DNA of 64,000 bases from a virus (IMGVR_UViG_2909739949_000002:18529-82528); one strand, 5' to 3'. Shown: positions 3,752 to 56,295, numbered from the stretch's first letter. A program made the numbers and translations. Notes: generated from the sequence alone by a model not told the origin.

Positions 3752-4357
3752 GTGATGCAGAGAATGACTATATTAACAGAATATAATCTAAGTTTTGAAG
3801 AGAAGCAAAGATTTGATGGCAATATGTTGGGAGATAGTAGCATAGTCTATAAGAGCAAAGAAACAAATGCTCCTAGATATCTACATTATTCTAAGCATAA
3901 AGAATATCTAATCTGGCTTTCTACAAAAGTAAATTACTTTACTAATAGACCTATTTGGAATAAGTTTGTCTTTGATAAAAGAACAAGAAAGACCTACTAT
4001 TCTTATTACATAGGTACTAAAAGTAGTTTATTCTTCAAGAACCAAAGAAGTAGGTGGTATATAGGGAGTAAAAAGATACTGCCTAATGACCTGATAATAG
4101 ATAAACATCTATTACTTCATTGGTACTTAGATGATGGAAGCAAAGCTACAAAAGGAGGAATATACTTTGCTACTGATGGATTTAGCTTTGAAGAAGCTGA
4201 AGCATTGAGTAACAAAATAGCAAAGTATACTAATCTAAATACAAGCCTACATACAAATCAAGGAAACCCTAGAGTGTATATATTCAAGAAAAACACTAAA
4301 GAGTTCTTTGATATCATAGGTAAGTGTCCAATAAGTAGCTTTGAATACAAGTGGTGA
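3752..4357 (+). CDS. LAGLIDADG-family homing endonuclease (free-standing)
   Basis: two LAGLIDADG-like motifs (FDGNMLGDSSIVY and LLHWYLDDGSKATKGG); AT-rich ORF in GC-richer flanks; weak RBS. Confidence 0.7.
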   Translation: MMQRMTILTEYNLSFEEKQRFDGNMLGDSSIVYKSKETNAPRYLHYSKHKEYLIWLSTKVNYFTNRPIWNKFVFDKRTRKTYYSYYIGTKSSLFFKNQRSRWYIGSKKILPNDLIIDKHLLLHWYLDDGSKATKGGIYFATDGFSFEEAEALSNKIAKYTNLNTSLHTNQGNPRVYIFKKNTKEFFDIIGKCPISSFEYKW

Positions 4358-4462
4358 ATTAACAAAACTGGATCCTATTGCTATCGAATTGATTAAACGT
4401 TACTTAAGTGGAATGAAAAGACACGAAGTAACTGAGCAATAATCAAAGCTAGTTAAATAACT

Positions 4463-4490
4463 GAAGGGGGATATCCCCCTTCTTTCTTTT
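4463..4490 (+). terminator. rho-independent terminator after HEG
   Basis: GAAGGGGGATATCCCCCTTC perfect hairpin followed by TTTCTTTT. Confidence 0.6.
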
Positions 4491-4631
4491 AGTGTTCTGC
4501 TTGACACACAGAACATCTTCAGATAAATTGTTTATCTAGATAAACAAATTCTATGTAATTATTCTACGAAGGTTGTATGGCCTATGGCTATCCTGGAGTA
4601 GAGTAAATATTTAGAAGCCTAACAAACTGAA

Positions 4632-4724
4632 CGTTGATCGCTTGAAGAAAGAATGCCGGAATGTAAGTTAGGTAGCTATCACTCTAGAATCTATACCGTT
4701 GATCGCTTGAAGAAAGAATGCCGG
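4632..4724. repeat. tandem direct repeat, 2 x ~65 bp with identical 28-bp core CGTTGATCGCTTGAAGAAAGAATGCCGG
   Basis: core at 4632-4659 and 4697-4724; second sub-repeat TAGGTAGCTAT / GGGTAGCTAT in each unit. Confidence 0.85.
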
Positions 4725-15103: not shown

Positions 15104-15330
15104 ATCTTCTTTAGAGGGTAGTTACTAGTAATAGTATTACCTTCTAATGAGGAGGATTAACTCCTTAGTTATGCAGGTTCAAGTTACCTATTCCTGTTGA
15201 AACTAAAGCTCAGGTAGGAGTAGCTAACCTATCCTAAGTAGGTAGTTGGTAACTAGTCCTCTAATATAGGTTCCTCTAATATTTAGTCTAGTGGCTCTTC
15301 TATATAATCTATAGGGTATAGAACAAGTGC

Positions 15331-15354
15331 TAGGCGGGTATTAAAGCCGCCTAT
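15331..15354 (+). terminator. TAGGCGGG-TATTAAA-GCCGCCTA hairpin (family A)
   Basis: GC stem in 470-bp intergenic region. Confidence 0.4.
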
Positions 15355-15577
15355 ATGAACTCCTGTTAATAGCAAGGAGAGAGGTGAGTAGAGTATATAT
15401 TGCTATTGTCTGCCATGTGCAGAGTCGGCTTCTTAGTCTGTAAAGGCTAAGTTCAAAGAAATATATAAAAGAGAAGGGTATCGGCTATCAGCCCTTAATA
15501 TCCCTAGTAGATATACAGCTATTAGGGATTAAGATAGCCCCTATTGAATACCTTTGTTATGAACAAAGGAGTCTATT

Positions 15578-16252
15578 ATGCCTAGTTTATTTGGTCTTAA
15601 AGCCATGATTGATCTGAGATCAGAGATATCTCGATCAGTTATGGAACTAAGTTGGAGAGATAACAAAGAGCAGTTCATAGCTCTTACTTGTTATGCGGGG
15701 GATAAAAGATTTGTTGGCAGCAAGAATATATTCAGATCAATGTTCTGCTTCATAGCAGAAAGGGATCTAGAAGTAGCTAAAGCTATCATAAGAAAGATAC
15801 CTTACCTAATTAACTGGGGTGAGGTAGTTAAGTTAATTGATGAGATAGATAATGAAGAGTTAGCTATCTATGCAGCATTGTTCTATGCGACAGTTCTAAG
15901 AGTCAGGAAGGATAGGTTAGCTATTAAATGGGCCCCTAGAGAGGGTAAAAGATTTCAAAGGGCTAGAAAGCTAATTATGGCTCAATTAGGAATTACTAGA
16001 AATAGTGAGTATAGAAAGTTCTTAGCTGAGTTAAATAAGGAATATGATACTTCCCTAGAAACCCTTATGTGTGAAGGGAGATGGGAAGATATTAATTATA
16101 CTCTTATCAGTAAGAGAGCCTTTACCTTATATAAGAATGCGTTTATTAAACATGATGGTAGGAGGGTAAGACTCTATCATCATGAGGATAGTAATAGAAG
16201 GAACTTCTTACAAATGGAGATTCTAATAACTAAGGAGGGATACAAGATATGA
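15578..16252 (+). CDS. hypothetical protein
   Basis: AAGGAG SD. Confidence 0.5.
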   Translation: MPSLFGLKAMIDLRSEISRSVMELSWRDNKEQFIALTCYAGDKRFVGSKNIFRSMFCFIAERDLEVAKAIIRKIPYLINWGEVVKLIDEIDNEELAIYAALFYATVLRVRKDRLAIKWAPREGKRFQRARKLIMAQLGITRNSEYRKFLAELNKEYDTSLETLMCEGRWEDINYTLISKRAFTLYKNAFIKHDGRRVRLYHHEDSNRRNFLQMEILITKEGYKI

Positions 16253-16428
16253 AATCAGAAGATCAATATAATAGGGCACAAGAGAAACATCACCCTATTA
16301 GAAGCAATTTTGGAAATGTTTTAGCAGTAGGTATAGGTCTATTACTTATACTATTTCCCTTATGGGGATTACAAGAGGCTAATAGAAGAATGGAAAAACC
16401 TATTAAGATAGAGTTACCTAACAAGTAG
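16249..16428 (+). CDS. small membrane protein (59 aa), not in ORF track
   Basis: ATGA overlap with upstream stop; AAGGAGGGA SD; TM helix. Confidence 0.4.
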   Translation: MKSEDQYNRAQEKHHPIRSNFGNVLAVGIGLLLILFPLWGLQEANRRMEKPIKIELPNK

Positions 16429-16440
16429 AAATATAAAGTT

Positions 16441-16477
16441 TATCTATTAGGGTTTAGTACCTTTATCTAATAGATAT
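16441..16477. repeat. hairpin TATCTATTAG...CTAATAGATA (family B)
   Basis: 10-bp stem, 16-nt loop. Confidence 0.5.
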
Positions 16478-16564
16478 GTCAATCTCCTAGTGAATAAAGG
16501 TACTTTCTTGGTAGCTTTGCCTCATACTTCAACAAAGAATGGTAGCTTAGTTTAGTTAATAAAA

Positions 16565-16597
16565 CCTATTAGAGTTTTACGGGTGTTATCTAATAGA
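16565..16597. repeat. hairpin CTATTAGA...TCTAATAG (family B)
   Basis: 8-bp stem. Confidence 0.45.
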
Positions 16598-16683
16598 CAT
16601 AGGTGTAATTCCTATAGTTACCAAATGGTGTATGTGACCCAGCGATTACAGAACACCCCTTTCTTAAATATAGGTAGATTAAC

Positions 16684-17531: not shown

Positions 17532-18269
17532 GGCGGGCTTCATTAGACGTTCCCTAATGTATAACCTAGATAGGAGTATAAGAGCTGGCTTCTAGGTCTT
17601 CTCTAGTAACGATTCTTACCAGCGTCATGGTTAATCCTCAATCCAAATAAGAGTAATAATGAAGAATAAGACTAGCAATTGGAGGTGGATACCTATCCGC
17701 TCCTCTGACTCAATAAGAGGAAGTAAATATAAAGTAATGAGTCTATTCTCTATCGACCCATCTAGATAGAGAAGAACTAGATGGCAATTCCTATAAGGAG
17801 TATTCTTATATAATCTATTAGGAATGGGTAGATTATATAAGATAGGTAGTCGGTTTAAGGCCGCCTTCTATTCATTAATTATCCTATTAATATGGGCTAG
17901 CCTTTAGGGTGAATTAGGAGAAGTAAGTTCAACTCTTACTACTACCATTAATAATGATAGCTATATCCCAATAGAAGGATTTATTAACTATACTAGGACT
18001 CTTCCCTATTGATACCTAGTATTAGTAGCACTGTAATAGGCTTTTATAACTGGAAGTTAATGAGAAACTACCATACCATTACATGACTTCATCCTTTATA
18101 AGTAGTGGTCAAGTTCAAAGGGGTTGAGTTTTATAGGTTTTAGTGAGAAACCATCTTCTATCTAAGGTTGTTAATTAGTAGGATAGTCGGATAGGAATTA
18201 ACTGTGCCTTTATTAATACCTATTTAATAAAGGTGAGTAGAATCTAGGAAAGGTAACTATAAGTTACAT

Positions 18270-18347
18270 TCTTCTATTAGAGAAAGATAATTGAAGATGA
18301 GAAGGGAACTCATTAGAGATTAATGAATATCTAATAGAAGGATAATC
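18270..18347. repeat. long-range hairpin TTCTTCTATTAG...CTAATAGAAGGA (family B)
   Basis: 12-bp stem with nested CATTAGAG/CTAATAG. Confidence 0.45.
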
Positions 18348-18367
18348 TAATTAATTTAAGGAAGGTG

Positions 18368-18541
18368 ATGAAACTAATTAAGTTTGCCTTCTTTCCTCTA
18401 TTCCTAGTTATGTATCTAATATCTCCTAAGAGAAATATAAAGAAGGAGATAGAAAAAGAGGTATCTAGAAAGATAGAAGAAGGAGACCCACCCCCAGGTA
18501 TTATCTGGGAGTGGGAAATAGAAGATGGGGAAGATGAATAG
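18368..18541 (+). CDS. small membrane protein (57 aa), not in ORF track
   Basis: AAGGAAGGTG SD; TM N-terminus, acidic C-terminus. Confidence 0.4.
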   Translation: MKLIKFAFFPLFLVMYLISPKRNIKKEIEKEVSRKIEEGDPPPGIIWEWEIEDGEDE

Positions 18542-18602
18542 TAAATAGATAGTAGATTAGTTTAATATCAGGGTTAATATTAATTCCTTAAGGAAAGAAA
18601 CA

Positions 18603-18734
18603 ATGAGATATCTACTTTATATAGCTATTCCTCTAATAGTCTATTGGACTATTGGTAGTTCATTTACTAGTCTAGTTACTAGTAATACTAATTCCCTTAT
18701 AGAGAAAAGGGTGATGGTGAATATAGATGAGTAA
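18603..18734 (+). CDS. small membrane protein (43 aa)
   Basis: AAGGAAAG SD; TM helix. Confidence 0.35.
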   Translation: MRYLLYIAIPLIVYWTIGSSFTSLVTSNTNSLIEKRVMVNIDE

Positions 18735-18742
18735 GGAGAAGT

Positions 18743-36406: not shown

Positions 36407-37186
36407 ATGAAAGACGCATTGGGAGATAGAATGAAGGAATTCTATGAGAATGTTTATAGAATTCATTTAACTAGAAGAACTCCTGTAATTCTAAGACTAG
36501 ATGGTAAGTCCTTCCATACTTACTGTAAATCTCTGAAGGATAGGTTTAATAAAGGATTCATGAGATGTATGGATCTAACTGCTATTAGATTAATGGGGGA
36601 GATACAGGGAGCCCAGCTTGCTTTTGTGCAGAGTGATGAGATTAGTATTCTTCTACATGATTATAAGAAACTAACATCTGAAGCATGGATGAAGAATAAT
36701 ATTCAGAAGATGGTTAGTATTAGTGCAGCTATAGCTTCAGTAGAGTTTACTAAGAATAGTCCTATCATTTGGGGATTTAAAGAACTAGATGACGGCTCCT
36801 CTATACCTATAACCAAAGAAGCATACTTTGATAGTAGAGTATTTACTATCCCAGAAGCGGAAGTATGTAATTACTTTATCTGGAGACAGAATGATGCAAC
36901 TAGAAACTCTATTCTTTCTTTAGGTCAAAGTCTCTTTTCACACAAACAGTTACAAGGATTGAACTGTTCTATAATTCAAGATATATGTCATGATAAAGGA
37001 CATAACTGGAATGATTTACCTACTAGTCATAAGAGAGGTAGATGCATAGTTAAAAAGTACCACAACTTTGTATCAGAAGGTGGAGTAGAGACTATAAGAA
37101 GTAAATGGGTAGTAGACGAAGAAATACCTATCTTTACTCAAGATAGAAACTATATAAATAAGTATTTGGCGGTTGATAATAGTTAA
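36407..37186 (+). CDS. Thg1-like protein (tRNA-His guanylyltransferase family; 3'-5' nucleotidyltransferase)
   Basis: GGAG SD; VILRLDGKSFHTY, AFVQSDEISILL, FDSRVFTIP, YFIWRQNDATRNS match Thg1 motifs including the catalytic Asp positions. Confidence 0.8.
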   Translation: MKDALGDRMKEFYENVYRIHLTRRTPVILRLDGKSFHTYCKSLKDRFNKGFMRCMDLTAIRLMGEIQGAQLAFVQSDEISILLHDYKKLTSEAWMKNNIQKMVSISAAIASVEFTKNSPIIWGFKELDDGSSIPITKEAYFDSRVFTIPEAEVCNYFIWRQNDATRNSILSLGQSLFSHKQLQGLNCSIIQDICHDKGHNWNDLPTSHKRGRCIVKKYHNFVSEGGVETIRSKWVVDEEIPIFTQDRNYINKYLAVDNS

Positions 37187-44237: not shown

Positions 44238-44474
44238 ATGAGTAATAATGAATCAAATAAGAGTGAGAATAATAAAGATATAGAACAGGAAGAAGATATA
44301 GATTGGATACTGAATCAGCCTATAGATATGAGGATTATTCCTATATCAAATACAGAAGGTAATGATGATTCTCCAAGAAGATCTATTAATCTAGATAGTT
44401 TAGAAAGGAATGTATCTATTGACACTCCCCTGCCTAAAGGCGAGGGGATTCTACATTCACAGACTCGCCGTTAG
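44238..44474 (+). CDS. hypothetical small protein; 3' end runs into IS right end (possibly truncated)
   Basis: AGGAG SD; last ~15 codons lie in GC-rich IS-derived sequence. Confidence 0.4.
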   Translation: MSNNESNKSENNKDIEQEEDIDWILNQPIDMRIIPISNTEGNDDSPRRSINLDSLERNVSIDTPLPKGEGILHSQTRR

Positions 44475-45795
44475 ACAGCAGGCTTGCGCCAACTGCCCAA
44501 GAGGGCAAATCTCCTGTAGCGTAAGTTCCCGTGTGCCCCACGGTACTGAGTCCTAATCTCAAAATGTTGATTGCTGCGTTGATGTCCCTATCTTCGGTAT
44601 ATCCGCAATGAGGGCAGATATGAGTCCTGCTGGACAGAGATTTTTTCACCTTCAAGCCACAGTTAGAGCAATTTTGACTTGTGTTATGGGGCGGAACTGC
44701 AACAGTCACTTTCCCATATTTATGACCAAAATACTCTAACCAACTACGGAAAGTGTACCAACCAGCATCAGATATTGATTTAGCTAAATGTCGATTTCGT
44801 ACCAGCCCTTTGACATTTAAATCTTCATAGGCTACCAAATCGTGAGATTGGATAACGGAGTACGCTAGTCTCTTGCAGTACTCTTTTCGTTGCCTACTTA
44901 CTTTTAAATGTTTACGGGCATATCTATTTCTAGCCTTGTGGTAATTGATTGATTGTCGCTGCTTGGCTTTTTTCCTCTGTTGACTGAATTTCTTAGACTT
45001 CTTGCGGTTGGCTCGGTTTAGCTGTTTTTCCGATTTACGGTAGAACTGGGGTGAAGGTTCAACATTACCTTTGTTGTCAGCGATGAAGTACTTCAATCCC
45101 AGATCAATACCCACTATTTGATTAGTCGGTTGAGTTTCTATCCTGACATCAATATCAATTGCAAATTGGGCATAATACCCATCTGCACGACGCACTAAAC
45201 GCACTCGTTTAATTTGCTTGATGCCGTAGTAATTGAGGTCGTAGGTTCCTTTTAGCTTCAGGGTTCCAATACCTTTTTTATCGGAGAAAGTTATCGCCTT
45301 TCTAGTTTCTGAAAGCTTCCACCCAGTTGATTTGTACTCAACCGAACGGCAGTTTTTCTTAAACTTTGGAAAACCCTTTTTACCCTTGACTTTTTTCTTG
45401 CAGTTATCGTAAAACCGAGCTATTGCGCTCCAAGAACGTTCAGCCGCAGATTGTCTAGCCATTGAGTTGAGTTCATCGGCAAAGGGAAACTCAGCAGCTA
45501 ATACCGCGCAGTATTTATTAAGGTCGTACCTACCAACATCTTTGTTATCCATCCAATAGCGCAAGCATTTGTTTTGGATGAATTGTGATGTGCGGATAGC
45601 CTCATCTATTGCTTGATATTGCTTATCTTTCCCCTTGACTTTAAACTCGTAAACAATCATGGGTATCGACCAATTAACCACATCTTTATGTTACCATAAA
45701 ACACATAAACATACCAAGGAAACAAAGGAATACTGAGGCGTAAACGCCTTAAATCGTTTTCATCCCTTGCCTAAAGGCTAAGGGTTTTCAACGGT
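44425..45795 (-). mobile_element. IS200/IS605-family (IS1341-type, tnpB-only) insertion sequence
   Basis: GC about 45-50% vs about 30% flanks; subterminal hairpins CCCCTGCCTAAAGGCGAGGGG (44432-44453) and CCCTTGCCTAAAGGCTAAGGG (45764-45788); no terminal IRs. Confidence 0.75.
44434..45681 (-). CDS. tnpB: TnpB (OrfB) RNA-guided endonuclease / IS605 accessory protein
   Basis: 415 aa; N-terminal MIVYEFKVK...; RuvC-like + C-terminal zinc finger CSNCG...CPHCG...DRDINAAINI. Confidence 0.85.
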   Translation of the reverse strand: MVNWSIPMIVYEFKVKGKDKQYQAIDEAIRTSQFIQNKCLRYWMDNKDVGRYDLNKYCAVLAAEFPFADELNSMARQSAAERSWSAIARFYDNCKKKVKGKKGFPKFKKNCRSVEYKSTGWKLSETRKAITFSDKKGIGTLKLKGTYDLNYYGIKQIKRVRLVRRADGYYAQFAIDIDVRIETQPTNQIVGIDLGLKYFIADNKGNVEPSPQFYRKSEKQLNRANRKKSKKFSQQRKKAKQRQSINYHKARNRYARKHLKVSRQRKEYCKRLAYSVIQSHDLVAYEDLNVKGLVRNRHLAKSISDAGWYTFRSWLEYFGHKYGKVTVAVPPHNTSQNCSNCGLKVKKSLSSRTHICPHCGYTEDRDINAAINILRLGLSTVGHTGTYATGDLPSWAVGASLLSNGESVNVESPRL

Positions 45796-54985: not shown

Positions 54986-55204
54986 ATGAGAAATAATATG
55001 GCACCTATAGAATTATCTCTAGAGCAACAGTTTAGTATTCGTTCCTTTGCTACTCAAGTAGAAGGAATGTCACATGAACAAGCTAAGGATTTCTTAGTGG
55101 ACTTATATAGACAAATGATAGTTAGAGAAGCCACCTATCAAGAGCTATTAAAACATCAATGGGGGCTGGATAATCCTCCTACCCTTAAGGATCAATTAGG
55201 ATAA
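54986..55204 (+). CDS. hypothetical small protein
   Basis: ORF 72 aa. Confidence 0.4.
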   Translation: MRNNMAPIELSLEQQFSIRSFATQVEGMSHEQAKDFLVDLYRQMIVREATYQELLKHQWGLDNPPTLKDQLG

Positions 55205-55209
55205 ATTAG

Positions 55210-55238
55210 TTGACAAATATCAACTAATACCCTACTGT
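55210..55238 (+). promoter_or_regulatory. sigma70-like promoter TTGACA-17-TACTGT immediately upstream of RNA array
   Basis: perfect -35 hexamer, 17-bp spacer, -10 with T1/A2/T6; predicted start about 7-10 nt before first array unit. Confidence 0.4.
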
Positions 55239-55249
55239 GATTTATATAA

Positions 55250-55368
55250 GGTACTGCTCCCTCTTCTGTCGAAGAATGAGATAGAAGCCATAGATAGTTA
55301 CTTCGGTTAAATCAAGGTTCAACTCCTTAAACTCTCATTGAGAGTATGTACTATCTAGTCCACCGTCC
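55250..55368 (+). ncRNA. Y-RNA-like structured RNA unit a (with tRNA-like module)
   Basis: 5' GGTACTGCT ... TAGATAGT-TTACTTC ... T-arm AAGG-TTCAACT-CCTT, closed acceptor AAACTCTC-ATT-GAGAGTAT ... ACTATCTA ... CCACCGTCC. Confidence 0.5.
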
Positions 55369-55396
55369 TTATATAAATAAGCATTTAAATATAGAT

Positions 55397-55465
55397 GGGT
55401 GCTGCTAATTAAGAGTTACTTCTTTTAGGGTAAAGACACAGTAAGACTCTAATGCTCACTGCCCC
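55397..55465 (+). ncRNA. Y-RNA-like structured RNA unit b (short form)
   Basis: GGGTGCTGCT-AATTAAGAG-TTACTTC ... ACTCTAAT ... CACTGCCCC; internal helix ATTA(A)GAGT/ACTCTAAT. Confidence 0.5.
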
Positions 55466-55483
55466 ATTTTTAATCTTCTCAAT

Positions 55484-55672
55484 ATGGAATGGAATAAGGA
55501 GATAGATTTACTCTTTGATAAATGGATAGAGATATCAATAGAGAAAGGTGAATGGTTTTACTTTTCAATAAAAGAAATCTATGATGTAGATCCTAAGTAT
55601 CAAGGAGTATTAGGTAAAACTGATTCAAGACCTGTATTTGAATTAGGATTTAGATTACCTTTTAAGATCTAA
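55484..55672 (+). CDS. questionable small ORF (62 aa) inside the RNA array
   Basis: no SD; lies between units b and c. Confidence 0.25.
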   Translation: MEWNKEIDLLFDKWIEISIEKGEWFYFSIKEIYDVDPKYQGVLGKTDSRPVFELGFRLPFKI

Positions 55673-55682
55673 ATAAATTAGA

Positions 55683-55809
55683 GGTGCTGCTCTAGATAGT
55701 TACTTCAGTAAAATCGTTCGGTTGTTAGTTCAAGTCTAACTATTACCCAAGGGTAATATAGCTCAATGGTAGAGCAAATGAAAAGATAAAACTATCTAAC
55801 CCACTGCCC
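55683..55809 (+). ncRNA. Y-RNA-like structured RNA unit c (with tRNA-like module 55724-55776)
   Basis: GGTGCTGCT-CTAGATAG-TTACTTC; T-arm GTTAG-TTCAAGT-CTAAC; acceptor TATTACCC-AA-GGGTAATA; D-arm GCTC-AATGGTA-GAGC; helix TAGATAGTT/AACTATCTA; 3' CCACTGCCC. Confidence 0.6.
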
Positions 55810-55820
55810 TCTTAGGAAAT

Positions 55821-55891
55821 GGGTACTGCTAGTTAAGGTTACTTCTATTAAAGCCAACAAACAGAGACAATACCTTAACGCTTACCGTCCC
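55821..55891 (+). ncRNA. Y-RNA-like structured RNA unit d (short form)
   Basis: GGGTACTGCT-AGTTAAGG-TTACTTC ... ACCTTAAC ... TTACCGTCCC; helix GTTAAGGT/ACCTTAAC. Confidence 0.5.
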
Positions 55892-55898
55892 ATTTAAT

Positions 55899-55970
55899 CC
55901 AGTCTTAGTTCATCGGTAGAATAGGCCTTTTGGGAAGGTCGGGTAACTGGTTCAATTCCAGTAGACTGGA
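55899..55970 (+). tRNA. tRNA-Pro (anticodon UGG)
   Basis: acceptor CCAGTCT/AGACTGG, D-stem GTTC/GAAT, anticodon stem GGCCT/AGGTC loop TTTGGGA, T-arm ACTGG-TTCAATT-CCAGT, discriminator A. Confidence 0.75.
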
Positions 55971-56046
55971 TTTAACTAACTAGTACTAAAGTGATGTAAT
56001 CATGTAGATTACTTCTCTTTAGCTTATAAGGGTTAGTTAGAATAGA

Positions 56047-56198
56047 AGTGCTGATAAGTAGAGATACATCAATAAATTAGATGTCCGTAGGTTCAAATCC
56101 TACTATTATTAGGTAACTAGTAATATGGCTGAGTGGCTAAAAGCATCTATTCTTAAAGAGTAGAGACATCACATACCATTTCTCTACTGACTACTGCC
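56047..56198 (+). ncRNA. Y-RNA-like structured RNA unit e (with tRNA-like module 56087-56144); preceded by degenerate partial unit at ~55990
   Basis: AGTGCTGAT-AAGTAGAGA-TACATC; T-arm GTAGG-TTCAAAT-CCTAC; acceptor TATTATT-A-GGTAACT-AGTAATA; D-arm GCT-GAGTGGCTAAA-AGC; helix AGTAGAGA/TCTCTACT; 3' CTACTGCC. Confidence 0.5.
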
Positions 56199-56212
56199 TT
56201 CTAGATATGAAA

Positions 56213-56287
56213 GGTACTGAATAGATAGAGATACTTCTACCGCAAATGGAAACATGGTAAACAAACCCTCTCTATCATCTACTGTCC
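56213..56287 (+). ncRNA. Y-RNA-like structured RNA unit f (short form)
   Basis: GGTACTGAA-TAGATAGAG-ATACTTC ... CTCTCTATC ... CTACTGTCC; helix GATAGAGA/TCTCTATC. Confidence 0.5.
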
Positions 56288-56295
56288 TTTTAGTA

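What the first reader, a model, noticed from the sequence alone, without database searches (positions are those of the whole stretch)
55899..55970. Canonical tRNA-Pro(UGG) embedded inside the Y-RNA-like array
A standard 72-nt cloverleaf tRNA sits between units d and e, only 8 nt after unit d's 3' conserved block. A genuine tRNA inside an array of tRNA-mimics suggests the array is one precursor. RNase P/Z cleavage at the tRNA, and possibly at the mimics, could liberate the individual RNAs. The tRNA may also simply supply Pro-UGG decoding for the AT-rich phage.
Basis: seen in the sequence. Interest (0 to 1): 0.6.

Follow-up and report, generated by a model that had tools for sequence, protein, structure and literature searches.

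The report
Proline tRNA within phage Y-RNA array
A normal-looking proline tRNA gene sits four bases after one of seven Ro60-type "Y RNA-like" genes in a probable cyanobacterial phage, and similar mixed tRNA/Y-RNA arrays recur next to Ro60 genes in unrelated phages, which suggests they are made as one transcript and cut apart by the cell's tRNA-processing enzymes.

Summary
ARAGORN and Rfam (53.4 bits; gathering score 29) both call tRNA-Pro(UGG) at 55899-55970 (+), the only tRNA in the window. It has a full cloverleaf and bacterial proline identity elements (C1:G72, A73, G35, G36, G37), and no encoded CCA.

It lies inside an array of seven Y RNA-like units (55248-56367) upstream of a Ro60/TROVE gene (56432-58039). 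The units' Ro60-type stem covaries strongly: 97.7% of cells paired and 14/15 pairs compensatory over 109 units. Neighbouring RNA genes lie 0-24 nt apart, except for a 212-nt gap between units b and c. A sigma-70-like promoter abuts unit a and a strong hairpin follows unit g.

Among 160 distantly related Ro60 loci, 134 carry such units. Seventeen ARAGORN tRNA calls lie within 15 nt of a unit, against about 2 expected, and Rfam confirms 15. Nineteen anticodons are involved. The four closest relatives have no tRNA.

Best reading: this is a functional tRNA co-transcribed with the Y-like RNAs and released by RNase P and RNase Z, cuts that also trim its neighbours. The coupling is general, not proline-specific. 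The decoding rationale is moderate (CCA is 27% of Pro codons). Expression is untested. It is a new variant of known kinds.

The parts
55210..55238 (+). Candidate sigma-70-type promoter of the array: TTGACA, 17-nt spacer, TACTGT. It ends 9 nt before unit a.
   Evidence: Read from the sequence. The -35 is perfect. The -10 matches only 3 of 6 positions (T1, A2, T6), so the scanner did not list it. L004 (TTGACA-17-TACAAT) and L001 (TTGCAG-17-TAATAT) have promoter-like sites equally close to their first unit. Inferred, not shown.
55248..55372 (+). Y-like unit a. It is atypical: an extra hairpin interrupts the 5' strand, and the apex has a T-arm and a closed stem but no D-arm.
   Evidence: Partial model hit at 55287-55363, 17.2 bits. 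Fold. Block matches.
55396..55468 (+). Y-like unit b (short)
   Evidence: R2 58.2 bits; fold.
55484..55672 (+). 62-aa orphan ORF, or a spacer, inside the array between units b and c
   Evidence: ORF list. No Pfam or PHROG family. The only database match is itself, hypothetical protein H6G33_10185. Its status as a gene is unsupported.
55681..55813 (+). Y-like unit c, YrlA-like. The apex carries a T-arm (GUUAG-UUCAAGU-CUAAC), a closed 7-bp 'acceptor' hairpin (UAUUACC-CAAG-GGUAAUA), U8-A9 and a D-arm (GCUC-AAUGGUA-GAGC).
   Evidence: R2 49.1 bits. Rfam YrlA RF02553 scores 35.7 bits, below its gathering score of 69. Fold.
55820..55894 (+). Y-like unit d (short); it ends 4 nt before the tRNA
   Evidence: R2 59.0 bits; fold.
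55899..55970 (+). tRNA-Pro(UGG), canonical, no encoded CCA. U at -1; the trailer starts UUU.
   Evidence: ARAGORN; Rfam tRNA 53.4 bits; the cloverleaf is the minimum-free-energy fold.
55971..56041 (+). Structured 71-nt hairpin 'x' that starts one base after the tRNA discriminator. Its 5' arm resembles a Y 5' block (AGUGAUG...AGAUUACUUC), but it has no matching 3' block.
   Evidence: -23.6 kcal/mol, z = -4.15, 0 of 200 shuffles fold as well. Only 8.8 bits against the Y model. Nature unresolved.
56045..56203 (+). Y-like unit e, YrlA-like: T-arm, closed 9-bp 'acceptor' hairpin and a D-arm-like hairpin at the apex
   Evidence: R2 45.4 bits; fold.
56211..56291 (+). Y-like unit f (short)
   Evidence: R2 56.9 bits.
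56294..56367 (+). Y-like unit g (short)
   Evidence: R2 61.0 bits.
56370..56397 (+). Terminator-like hairpin (12-bp stem, 4-nt loop) followed by UUAAUACUUUAUAU. It lies between the array and the Ro60 gene.
   Evidence: -17.3 kcal/mol, z = -4.7, 0 of 200 shuffles. The U-tract is imperfect, so the scanner did not call it. L004 and L046 have clear terminators at the same position.
56432..58039 (+). Ro60/Rsr-type TROVE-domain protein, 535 aa
   Evidence: Pfam TROVE 2e-11. phrog_850 2e-28. 4399 homologues, some named '60 kDa SS-A/Ro ribonucleoprotein'. Matches the solved phage phiLo Ro60, 9KOP/9L5Y, at E 2e-6.

Best explanation
The tRNA-Pro(UGG) gene is a functional tRNA gene that forms part of a polycistronic small-RNA transcription unit together with the Y RNA-like genes upstream of Ro60. 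Transcription starts at, or just before, unit a, or possibly at an internal start before unit c, and runs to the hairpin after unit g. Host RNase P cuts at the tRNA 5' end. An RNase Z-type enzyme cuts after A73, and the host CCA-adding enzyme completes the tRNA. The same two cuts create the 3' end of unit d and the 5' end of the downstream hairpin x and unit e. The tRNA therefore acts both as a decoder for CCN proline codons and as a built-in processing signal. The long units c and e have closed 7-9 bp 'acceptor' hairpins and may also be cut by RNase P. The coupling is generic: phage Ro60/Y-RNA modules live inside tRNA/tmRNA gene islands and share their transcription and maturation. It is not specific to proline. 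Shown here: the tRNA, the array, the spacing, and the recurrence elsewhere. Inferred: co-transcription, the cleavage sites, aminoacylation and use in translation.
For: The tRNA is canonical. It carries the elements bacterial ProRS and TrmD use (C1:G72, A73, G35, G36, G37), read and interpreted from established knowledge. All units and the tRNA are on one strand. The spacers are 6 nt (c-d), 4 nt (d-tRNA), 0 nt (tRNA-x), 3 nt (x-e), 7 nt (e-f), 2 nt (f-g) and 2 nt (g-hairpin). A promoter-like site abuts only the first unit, and a strong hairpin follows the last. The units are real structured RNAs: 100% of cells paired with 11/15 compensatory pairs among window units, and 97.7% paired with 14/15 compensatory pairs over 109 units, against 44-51% in slid controls. 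Recurrence: 134 of 160 Ro60 loci carry such units, and all 308 hits are on the Ro60 strand. Seventeen ARAGORN tRNA calls lie within 15 nt of a unit, against 2.0 expected (maximum 8 in 1000 random placements); 30 lie within 100 nt, against 11.2 +/- 3.3. Rfam confirms 15 of the 17. L004 reads promoter, four Y units, 2 nt, tRNA-Pro(UGG), terminator, Ro60. L046 reads tRNA, Y, tRNA-Gly, Y, tRNA-Asn, terminator, Ro60 with 2-9 nt spacers. Precedent: M. smegmatis YrlA and YrlB come from one precursor, and that YrlA is cut by RNase P and receives CCA (PMC4201824).
Against: There are no expression data. The -10 element is weak, and the promoter scan of the region is at chance level (8 found, 10.5 expected). 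A 212-nt stretch with an orphan ORF lies between units b and c, and a promoter-like site at 55557-55585 could start a second transcript. The stable hairpin directly after A73 could hinder 3' processing. Decoding need is not compelling: CCA is 27% and CCT 59% of 552 Pro codons, Pro is 3.2% of codons, and AGA, ATA and TTA are far more skewed. The four closest Ro60 relatives (L162-L165) have Y units but no tRNA, so the tRNA is not needed by the Ro60/Y system. The window's tRNA-Pro shows no special similarity to L004's.
Confidence: 0.6

Rival explanations
1. The tRNA serves mainly as punctuation. It is kept as an RNase P/Z recognition module that separates Y-like RNAs in the precursor, as in the mitochondrial tRNA punctuation model, and its decoding capacity is incidental or dispensable.
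For: The isotype is arbitrary across loci: 19 anticodons sit next to Y units. Spacers are only 2-13 nt. The codon-supply argument for Pro is weak. Abutment is enriched about 8-fold over random placement.
Against: Most Y-Y junctions, here and in other loci, have no tRNA between them, so a tRNA is not required to separate units. The closest relatives lack one. The anticodon loop and the ProRS/TrmD elements are intact, which punctuation alone would not preserve.
Confidence: 0.15
2. The tRNA is functionally tied to the Ro60-Y RNP. Either it is a client of an RNA surveillance or repair module, or it is a replacement tRNA that lets the element escape a host tRNA-Pro-targeting nuclease, with Ro60/Y RNAs, and perhaps the Thg1-like enzyme, acting in the same counter-defence pathway.
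For: Ro60 genes lie in tRNA/tmRNA islands in many phages. In some relatives, complete tRNAs are physically fused into Y stems, or Y stems replace the anticodon arm of tRNA-shaped RNAs. The window also encodes a Thg1-like enzyme from a tRNA 5'-end enzyme family. Bacterial rsr-yrlBA is part of the rtcBA RNA repair operon, which is induced by damaged tRNAs (PMC7790460, title and abstract). A phage Ro60-like gene next to tRNA genes counters the ppl defence system in Bas63 (10.1101/2024.10.10.617714).
Against: There is no preference for Pro or any other isotype. No RtcB, ligase or PNPase family turned up among the window's 67 ORFs of at least 100 aa. The Thg1-like gene is 19 kb away. All links are by association only.
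Confidence: 0.15
3. The sequence is a tRNA-shaped decoy or pseudogene: one more mimic in the array that is not aminoacylated or used in translation.
For: It sits among tRNA mimics. ARAGORN does miscall YrlA-like units as tRNAs in related loci (L001, L058, L087). The 15-48 pair would be U-A rather than the usual G-C or A-U (read).
Against: It scores 53.4 bits against the tRNA model, with every arm and the conserved tertiary positions present. It has an open 7-bp acceptor stem with A73 and a standard anticodon loop. It gets no hit from the Y-stem model. The miscalled mimics fail the Rfam threshold, whereas this one passes it clearly.
Confidence: 0.06
4. The tRNA is a remnant or target of site-specific integration (an att site) and has nothing to do with the array.
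For: tRNA genes are common integration sites (established knowledge). The contig comes from a Calothrix assembly. A transposase lies in the window.
Against: There is no second copy of the tRNA 3' half anywhere in the window, even allowing 3 mismatches. The tRNA lies in the middle of a same-strand array and not at a boundary of gene content. No integrase family was detected. The same arrangement recurs in unrelated phage contigs.
Confidence: 0.02

Closest known systems
Mycobacterium smegmatis YrlA/YrlB locus upstream of rsr (Chen et al. 2014, PMC4201824)
   Same: [quoted passage not shown] A tRNA-like module with a 7-bp acceptor stem is cut by RNase P and receives CCA. Window units c and e have the same T-arm / closed acceptor / D-arm order.
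   Different: That locus has two RNAs and no true tRNA. Here there are seven units plus a canonical tRNA with an anticodon arm. The Ro-binding strand here carries GAGUUACUUC rather than the GNCGAAN0-1G motif. No unit reaches the Rfam YrlA gathering score.
Phage Ro60 with upstream Y RNA-like genes: Thermus phage phiLo Yrl1/Yrl2 (PMC12135203) and the 22 phages in Chen et al. 2014
   Same: A phage-encoded Ro60 with Y-like RNA genes directly upstream. The protein matches phiLo Ro60 structures 9KOP/9L5Y.
   Different: phiLo has two Yrls identified through CGAA motifs, and no tRNA is reported between them. Chen et al. deliberately discarded hits that overlapped tandem tRNA genes, so mixed arrays would have been missed.
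Bas63 gp130, a Ro60-like protein directly upstream of annotated tRNA genes (PhageMaP preprint, 10.1101/2024.10.10.617714)
   Same: Adjacency of a phage Ro60-like gene to a run of tRNA genes, with the suggestion that some of them may be Y RNAs.
   Different: It is an anecdotal remark for one coliphage with no RNA analysis. Here the Y-like units and the true tRNA are separated explicitly by two models, and the association is quantified over 160 loci.
Phage T4 tRNA gene cluster with small stable RNAs C and D (own knowledge, not checked here)
   Same: A phage operon that mixes tRNAs with other small structured RNAs, transcribed as precursors and matured by host RNase P and 3' processing enzymes.
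   Different: T4 has no Ro60, and its extra RNAs are not Y RNAs. In the window, tRNA is the minority component (1 of 8-9 RNAs).
tRNA punctuation of polycistronic transcripts (animal mitochondria; tRNA-like mascRNA of MALAT1) (own knowledge)
   Same: It works the same way: RNase P and RNase Z cleavage at a tRNA structure defines the ends of the neighbouring RNAs.
   Different: The organisms and the flanking RNAs differ. In the window most unit junctions lack a tRNA, so punctuation cannot be the only processing route.

Membership tests
Canonical bacterial-type elongator tRNA (tRNA-Pro, anticodon UGG) | Cloverleaf with a 7-bp acceptor stem, D arm, 5-bp anticodon stem with a 7-nt loop, 5-bp T stem with a 7-nt loop, recognised by tRNA models | tested here: met
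   ARAGORN; Rfam RF00005 53.4 bits against a gathering score of 29, model positions 1-71; the minimum-free-energy fold is the cloverleaf.
Canonical bacterial-type elongator tRNA (tRNA-Pro, anticodon UGG) | Conserved tertiary and loop nucleotides (U8, A14, G18, G19, A21, U33, purine 37, U54, U55, C56, A58) | tested here: met
   All are present in the aligned sequence. The 15-48 pair would be U-A, which is unusual.
Canonical bacterial-type elongator tRNA (tRNA-Pro, anticodon UGG) | Proline identity elements for bacterial ProRS (C1:G72, A73, G35, G36) and the G36-G37 context for TrmD | tested here: met
   Read from the sequence. Their role as identity elements is established knowledge for E. coli and was not tested here.
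Canonical bacterial-type elongator tRNA (tRNA-Pro, anticodon UGG) | Expressed, matured to about 75 nt with CCA, aminoacylated and used on ribosomes | not testable with these tools
   CCA is not encoded, so CCA addition would be needed. No expression data are available.
Y RNA / YrlA (Ro60-bound tRNA mimic), as a classification of the tRNA itself | 5' and 3' ends pair into a Ro60-binding stem; the tRNA-like module has a closed acceptor stem and no anticodon arm | tested here: not met
   No hit of the Y-stem model R2 overlaps 55899-55970, even with filters off at E up to 10. The acceptor stem is open, and an anticodon arm is present.
Rfam YrlA (RF02553), as a classification of the surrounding units | Score at or above the curated gathering threshold of 69 bits | tested here: not met
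   The best hit is unit c at 35.7 bits. No unit in 34 related loci reaches it. The units work like Y RNAs (stem next to Ro60, tRNA-like apex) but form a divergent family.
Y RNA-like family defined here (model R2) | Two-helix stem with a bulged U and the GAGUUACUUC motif, covarying, encoded next to and on the same strand as a Ro60 gene | tested here: met
   Six window units score 45-61 bits. All 308 hits are on the Ro60 strand. 97.7% of cells are paired and 14/15 pairs are compensatory. Binding to Ro60 is not testable here.
Polycistronic tRNA/small-RNA operon processed by RNase P and RNase Z | Same-strand genes with spacers too short for separate promoters | tested here: met
   Spacers of 0-7 nt from unit c to the hairpin after unit g. 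The exceptions are 23 nt between a and b and 212 nt between b and c.
Polycistronic tRNA/small-RNA operon processed by RNase P and RNase Z | One promoter upstream and one terminator downstream | tested here: inconclusive
   TTGACA-17-TACTGT lies before unit a, and a strong hairpin with a poor U-tract follows unit g. The consensus scan does not exceed chance. The relatives L004 and L046 are clear cases.
Polycistronic tRNA/small-RNA operon processed by RNase P and RNase Z | A precursor transcript and processed ends observed | not testable with these tools
   This needs RNA-seq or RACE.
tRNA gene as integration (att) site | A repeat of the tRNA 3' part at the other end of the element, an integrase nearby, and a boundary in gene content | tested here: not met
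   No repeat in the window. No integrase family. The tRNA is internal to the array. The rest of the 359-kb contig could not be examined.

The most novel reading that the evidence does not exclude
Mixed tRNA/Y-RNA arrays are one end of a continuum that runs to physically fused tRNA-Y chimeras. These include complete tRNAs nested at the apex of Ro60-binding stems, and tRNA-shaped RNAs whose anticodon arm is a Ro60-binding stem-loop, one of them in cultured crAss001. Under this reading, phage Ro60 RNPs are assembled on, or act on, tRNA precursors. The window's tRNA-Pro would then be a working partner of the Ro60/Y system in tRNA surveillance, repair or counter-defence, perhaps together with the Thg1-like enzyme, and not just a neighbour.
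Probability: 0.2. Interest if true: 0.8.

Novelty: new variant of a known kind. Interest (0 to 1): 0.55.

Why it matters
Ro60 and Y RNAs are conserved from bacteria to humans, yet what the tRNA-like part of bacterial and phage Y RNAs is for remains unclear. A true tRNA wired into a Y-RNA array, recurring in unrelated phages with 2-13 nt spacers, gives a concrete and testable link. The RNAs would share one precursor and the RNase P / RNase Z / CCA-adding machinery, and this supports the idea that Y RNAs descend from tRNA genes. It also has practical weight. tRNA finders miscall YrlA-like units as tRNAs, and earlier Y-RNA surveys discarded hits overlapping tRNA genes, so both tRNA counts and Y-RNA counts in phage genomes are probably biased. 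Related loci, including cultured crAss001, offer systems where the coupling could be tested by experiment.

Tried and rejected
1. Close relatives of this element. The Ro60 protein has no homologue above about 52% identity among 5.8 billion proteins apart from its own record. A single-protein scan of viral contigs found nothing. The region and the tRNA have no match among annotated phages or plasmids beyond short crAss TROVE segments. Exact 35-39-nt tRNA patterns are absent from viral and metagenome contigs. Conservation could therefore be tested only in distant relatives.
2. Orthology of the window's tRNA-Pro with L004's. The alignment shows only generic tRNA similarity, so shared ancestry of the tRNA with the array is not supported.
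3. ARAGORN calls taken at face value. L001's 'tRNA-Pro' 89 nt upstream of Ro60 first looked like a conserved tRNA-Pro, but it is a YrlA-like unit. L058, L087 and one L040 call also fail Rfam.
4. MAFFT alignments of whole units or mini-units (A2, A3, A7) put the helices out of register. I used a hand-structured seed from window units, two of them trimmed by one or two bases to keep register, and then let Infernal realign.
5. Region x as an eighth Y unit: it scores only 8.8 bits and has no 3' block, so this is rejected as a call. It is a strong hairpin of unknown role.
6. Att-site reading: rejected.
7. The 62-aa ORF as a conserved gene: no homologue.
8. A proline-specific role: rejected, because 19 anticodons occur next to Y units.
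9. The reviews PMC10870794 and PMC6047535 could not be read, so my novelty judgement rests on a limited literature search.

Full report
OBSERVATION. ARAGORN reports a single tRNA in the 64-kb window, tRNA-Pro(TGG), at 55898-55971 on the + strand. Rfam's tRNA model matches 55899-55970 over its full length at 53.4 bits, against a gathering score of 29. The cloverleaf is also the minimum-free-energy and centroid structure (-23.2 kcal/mol, z = -2.3).

The aligned sequence shows the following:
- a 7-bp acceptor stem (C1:G72 to U7:A66) and U8
- a D arm with A14, G18, G19 and A21
- the anticodon loop UUUGGGA (U33, U34-G35-G36, G37)
- a 5-nt variable loop
- the T loop UUCAAUU
- discriminator A73

C1:G72, A73, G35 and G36 are the identity set of bacterial ProRS, and G36-G37 is the TrmD context (established knowledge; not tested here). 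CCA is not encoded. Position -1 is U, and the trailer starts UUU.

SURROUNDINGS. The tRNA lies between a NblA gene (54986-55204; Pfam 1e-25) and a 535-aa TROVE/Ro60 gene (56432-58039; Pfam 2e-11, phrog_850 2e-28). Ro60 homologues are named '60 kDa SS-A/Ro ribonucleoprotein' by some sources, and the protein matches the solved Thermus phage phiLo Ro60.

The intergenic 1.2 kb holds repeated units with a 5' block GGUGCUG...(G/A)GUUACUUC and a 3' block ...C(A/U)ACUGCCC. Each unit folds into a terminal stem with a bulged U, an internal loop, and a 7-9 bp inner helix. Among six window units, all 90 pair cells are standard pairs, and 11 of 15 pairs show compensatory changes. Slid controls pair at 37-52%.

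Units a, c and e carry tRNA-like hairpins at the apex. In unit c the order is T-arm, a closed 7-bp 'acceptor' hairpin, U8-A9, then a D-arm, which is the YrlA arrangement. Rfam YrlA gives only 35.7 bits against a gathering score of 69, because the Ro-binding strand lacks the GNCGAAN0-1G motif described by Chen et al. (PMC4201824).

With a covariance model built from these units (R1, then R2), the window units are:
- b 55396-55468
- c 55681-55813
- d 55820-55894
- e 56045-56203
- f 56211-56291
- g 56294-56367
- a, as a partial hit (55287-55363 within 55248-55372)

The tRNA starts 4 nt after unit d. Directly after A73 comes a 71-nt hairpin, x (55971-56041; z = -4.15, no shuffle as stable). Its 5' arm looks like a Y 5' block, but it scores only 8.8 bits.

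TRANSCRIPTION SIGNALS. A perfect -35 (TTGACA, 55210-55215), a 17-nt spacer and TACTGT end 9 nt before unit a. The -10 is weak, and the generic scan of the region does not exceed chance. After unit g there is a 12-bp hairpin (56370-56397; z = -4.7) with an imperfect U-tract, followed by a Shine-Dalgarno-like AAAGGTGA and the Ro60 start codon.

From unit c to the hairpin after unit g, the spacers between neighbours are 0-7 nt, which is too short for separate promoters. Between b and c lies a 212-nt stretch with a 62-aa ORF that has no homologue other than itself, and a chance-level promoter-like site at 55557-55585. Therefore the tRNA must at least be co-transcribed with c and d. Whether a-b belongs to the same transcript is open.

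RELATED LOCI. The Ro60 protein is recorded from Calothrix sp. FACHB-1219 on a 359,493-bp contig, and the next relatives are only about 52% identical. Using an alignment of 29 homologues, I fetched 80 viral and 80 genome/MAG loci and four contigs of the closest proteins.

Model R2 finds 308 units at E up to 0.1 (E-values from this model are rough), and every one is on the Ro60 strand. Of the 160 loci, 134 have at least one unit and 96 have at least two. Over 109 confident units, 97.7% of cells pair, 14 of 15 pairs have compensatory changes, and slid controls give 44-51%. That alignment is fitted to the model, which favours the structure.

tRNA genes are dense around viral Ro60 genes, at roughly 0.2-0.35 per 500 nt, and most are on the same strand. 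Thirty of 75 non-redundant viral loci have one within 1 kb. tmRNA genes occur there too.

Direct abutment is enriched:
- 17 ARAGORN tRNA calls lie within 15 nt of a Y unit, against 2.0 expected from random placement (maximum 8 in 1000 trials).
- 30 lie within 100 nt, against 11.2 +/- 3.3 expected.
- Rfam confirms 15 of the 17. The L087 call and one L040 call fail.

Nineteen different anticodons are involved.

The best parallels to the window are:
- L004/L083: TTGACA-17-TACAAT, four Y units, 2 nt, tRNA-Pro(UGG) at 63 bits with C1:G72 and A73, a strong terminator, then Ro60.
- L046: tRNA, 8 nt, Y, 9 nt, tRNA-Gly, 2 nt, Y, 3 nt, tRNA-Asn, terminator, Ro60.
- L084: Y, Y, tRNA-Arg(UCU), Ro60.

The four closest relatives (L162-L165) have 2-3 units and no tRNA. 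The window's tRNA-Pro is no closer to L004's than to other tRNA-Pro genes. The tRNA is thus a recurrent but optional and interchangeable component.

MECHANISM. The most likely account is this. The tRNA is part of a polycistronic small-RNA precursor. RNase P and an RNase Z-type enzyme excise it, the CCA-adding enzyme completes it, and the same cuts trim unit d and the downstream RNA. It then decodes proline codons.

There is experimental precedent for Y RNAs. M. smegmatis YrlA and YrlB are 'processed from a single precursor', and that YrlA, which has a 7-bp acceptor stem, is cut by RNase P and receives CCA (PMC4201824).

The decoding argument is only moderate. Among 552 Pro codons, CCT is 59%, CCA 27%, CCC 9% and CCG 4%. 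AGA (72% of Arg), ATA (47% of Ile) and TTA (42% of Leu) are more extreme, and these are the codons whose tRNAs appear in the crAss-like relatives. Reading CCU would need an unmodified or cmo5-type U34 (established knowledge; not testable here).

RIVALS.
- A punctuation-only role fits the arbitrary isotypes, but most unit junctions lack a tRNA.
- A functional link to Ro60 (surveillance, repair, counter-defence) fits several observations: the fused tRNA-Y architectures in relatives, the Thg1-like gene in the window, the rsr-yrlBA-rtcBA operon induced by damaged tRNAs (PMC7790460), and the Bas63 Ro60-like counter-defence gene next to tRNA genes. This link rests on association only.
- A decoy or pseudogene is unlikely, given the score and the intact elements.
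- An att site is rejected.

IS IT A PHAGE? Of 104 ORFs, 97 are on the + strand, GC content is 34%, and many ORFs match only PHROG families. The content includes a class II ribonucleotide reductase, a MazG-like pyrophosphohydrolase, NUDIX, a LAGLIDADG endonuclease, T5orf172, NblA and a ParB-like protein. That pattern fits the replication and metabolism region of a large cyanophage. No capsid, portal, terminase or tail family was found in this window, so 'phage' is probable, not shown.

NOVELTY. Already known:
- phage tRNA genes
- phage Ro60 with upstream Y-like RNAs
- the tRNA-like nature and proposed tRNA origin of YrlA
- a remark that a phage Ro60-like gene abuts tRNA genes

Not found in the literature I could search (two reviews were unavailable):
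- true tRNAs interleaved with Y-like units at 2-13 nt spacing
- any quantification of that association
- the nested and permuted tRNA-Y chimeras

Chen et al. removed hits overlapping tandem tRNA genes, which would have hidden such arrays. I rate the finding a new variant of known kinds, of moderate interest. The higher-interest material lies in the related loci.

Noticed in passing
L034 4437-4569; L011 3231-3363; L014 8775-8899; L030 6423-6550; L037 6375-6501: Complete tRNA cloverleaves (Gln UUG, Gln UUG, His GUG, Arg UCU, Lys UUU; Rfam tRNA 48-64 bits) sit as the apical domain of a Y-type stem. The Y 5' block ends 22-27 nt before the tRNA, and the 3' block follows about 10 nt after it. In effect this is a pre-tRNA whose leader and trailer form a Ro60-type stem.
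   Followed up: partly
L161 (Bacteroides phage crAss001, NC_049977.1) locus 4502-4645; also L034 6543-6669, L011 6543-6668, L037 6517-6647, L023 6567-6692, L014 9021-9145, L010 6396-6532: tRNA-shaped RNAs of 125-144 nt with an open acceptor stem, D-arm and T-arm (Rfam tRNA 42-49 bits), in which the anticodon arm is replaced by a Y stem-loop with its blocks in permuted order (UGUUCC ... loop ... GGUG..GAGUUACUUC). This is a circular permutation of the YrlA shape. In crAss001 it lies in an unannotated gap just downstream of the TROVE gene gp96, after two Y-like units at 4328-4407 and 4422-4495.
   Followed up: partly
L002 2437-2790, L010 4198-4552, L011 3519-3869, L014 10755-11165, L023 7522-7829, L034 4580-4960, L037 3706-4111, L092 6685-7039: tmRNA genes (Rfam RF00023, 49-97 bits) lie within a few kb of phage Ro60 genes on the same strand, alongside tRNAs and Y-like units.
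   Followed up: no
window 36407-37183 (+): A 259-aa Thg1-like protein of the tRNA-His guanylyltransferase family (Pfam PF04446 1.9e-23; phrog_4717 1.2e-80). Bacterial members of this family are known to repair 5'-truncated tRNAs (own knowledge). It is a second tRNA-related function in the same window.
   Followed up: partly
window 15578-16249 (+), with non-coding gaps 15104-15577, 16253-16683 and 17532-18742: A 224-aa ORF matches the Ro60/TROVE PHROG (phrog_850, profile positions 50-233 of 476, E 2e-15). It may be a partial or degraded second Ro60-like gene. It is flanked by unusually long non-coding stretches, and no Y-like unit was found there.
   Followed up: partly
window 55971-56041 (+): A very stable 71-nt hairpin starts one base after the tRNA (z = -4.15). 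Its 5' arm is similar to the 5' block of unit g. A 3'-block-like sequence (CAUCACAUACCAUUU, 56166-56180) lies inside unit e and could pair with it only as a pseudoknot. It may be a decayed unit or a separate small RNA.
   Followed up: partly
window 55484-55672 (+): A 62-aa ORF inside the RNA array, annotated as hypothetical protein H6G33_10185. It has no homologue in 5.8 billion proteins and no Shine-Dalgarno sequence before its start codon. The 212-nt b-c interval may be non-coding.
   Followed up: yes
L001 2058-2134, L058 1997-2068, L081 1969-2037, L085 2562-2630, L087 213-287, L108 4800-4875, L144 4291-4363, L160 4088-4163: ARAGORN calls 'tRNAs' that are really the 5' part of YrlA-like units (Y 5' strand plus T-arm). 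Those checked with Rfam fail the tRNA threshold. The 68-nt 'tRNA-Asn' calls in Acidobacteria loci are likely the same artefact. This is a source of inflated tRNA counts in Ro60-bearing genomes.
   Followed up: partly
window 58128-58691, 58704-59276, 59280-59822 (+): Three tandem paralogous ORFs (187, 190 and 180 aa, sharing N-terminal LSEIK...GDY and central GNLSAI motifs) lie directly downstream of Ro60. The two scanned against PHROGs had no match, and the first has no Pfam match.
   Followed up: no
window 56432-58039 (+), about residues 135-190: The Ro60 protein is about 70 aa longer than its homologues (535 against roughly 465 aa). It contains a lysine-rich repeat, KKGDIRYKKGEVRYKKGQSIRK, that looks like an insertion.
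   Followed up: no
L163 2709-2778; L033 7067-7127; L035 6-253; L007 7853-7918 and 9772-9845: Other structured RNAs occur near phage Ro60 loci: a twister-sister ribozyme (42.9 bits), a pistol ribozyme (57.9 bits), a group I intron (85.9 bits) and two int-alpA RNAs.
   Followed up: no
window 44434-45681 (-): An IS200/IS605-type TnpB (OrfB_IS605, Cas12f1-like TNB domain; phrog_506 8e-93) on the minority strand. It is an insertion element within the otherwise co-directional gene set.
   Followed up: no
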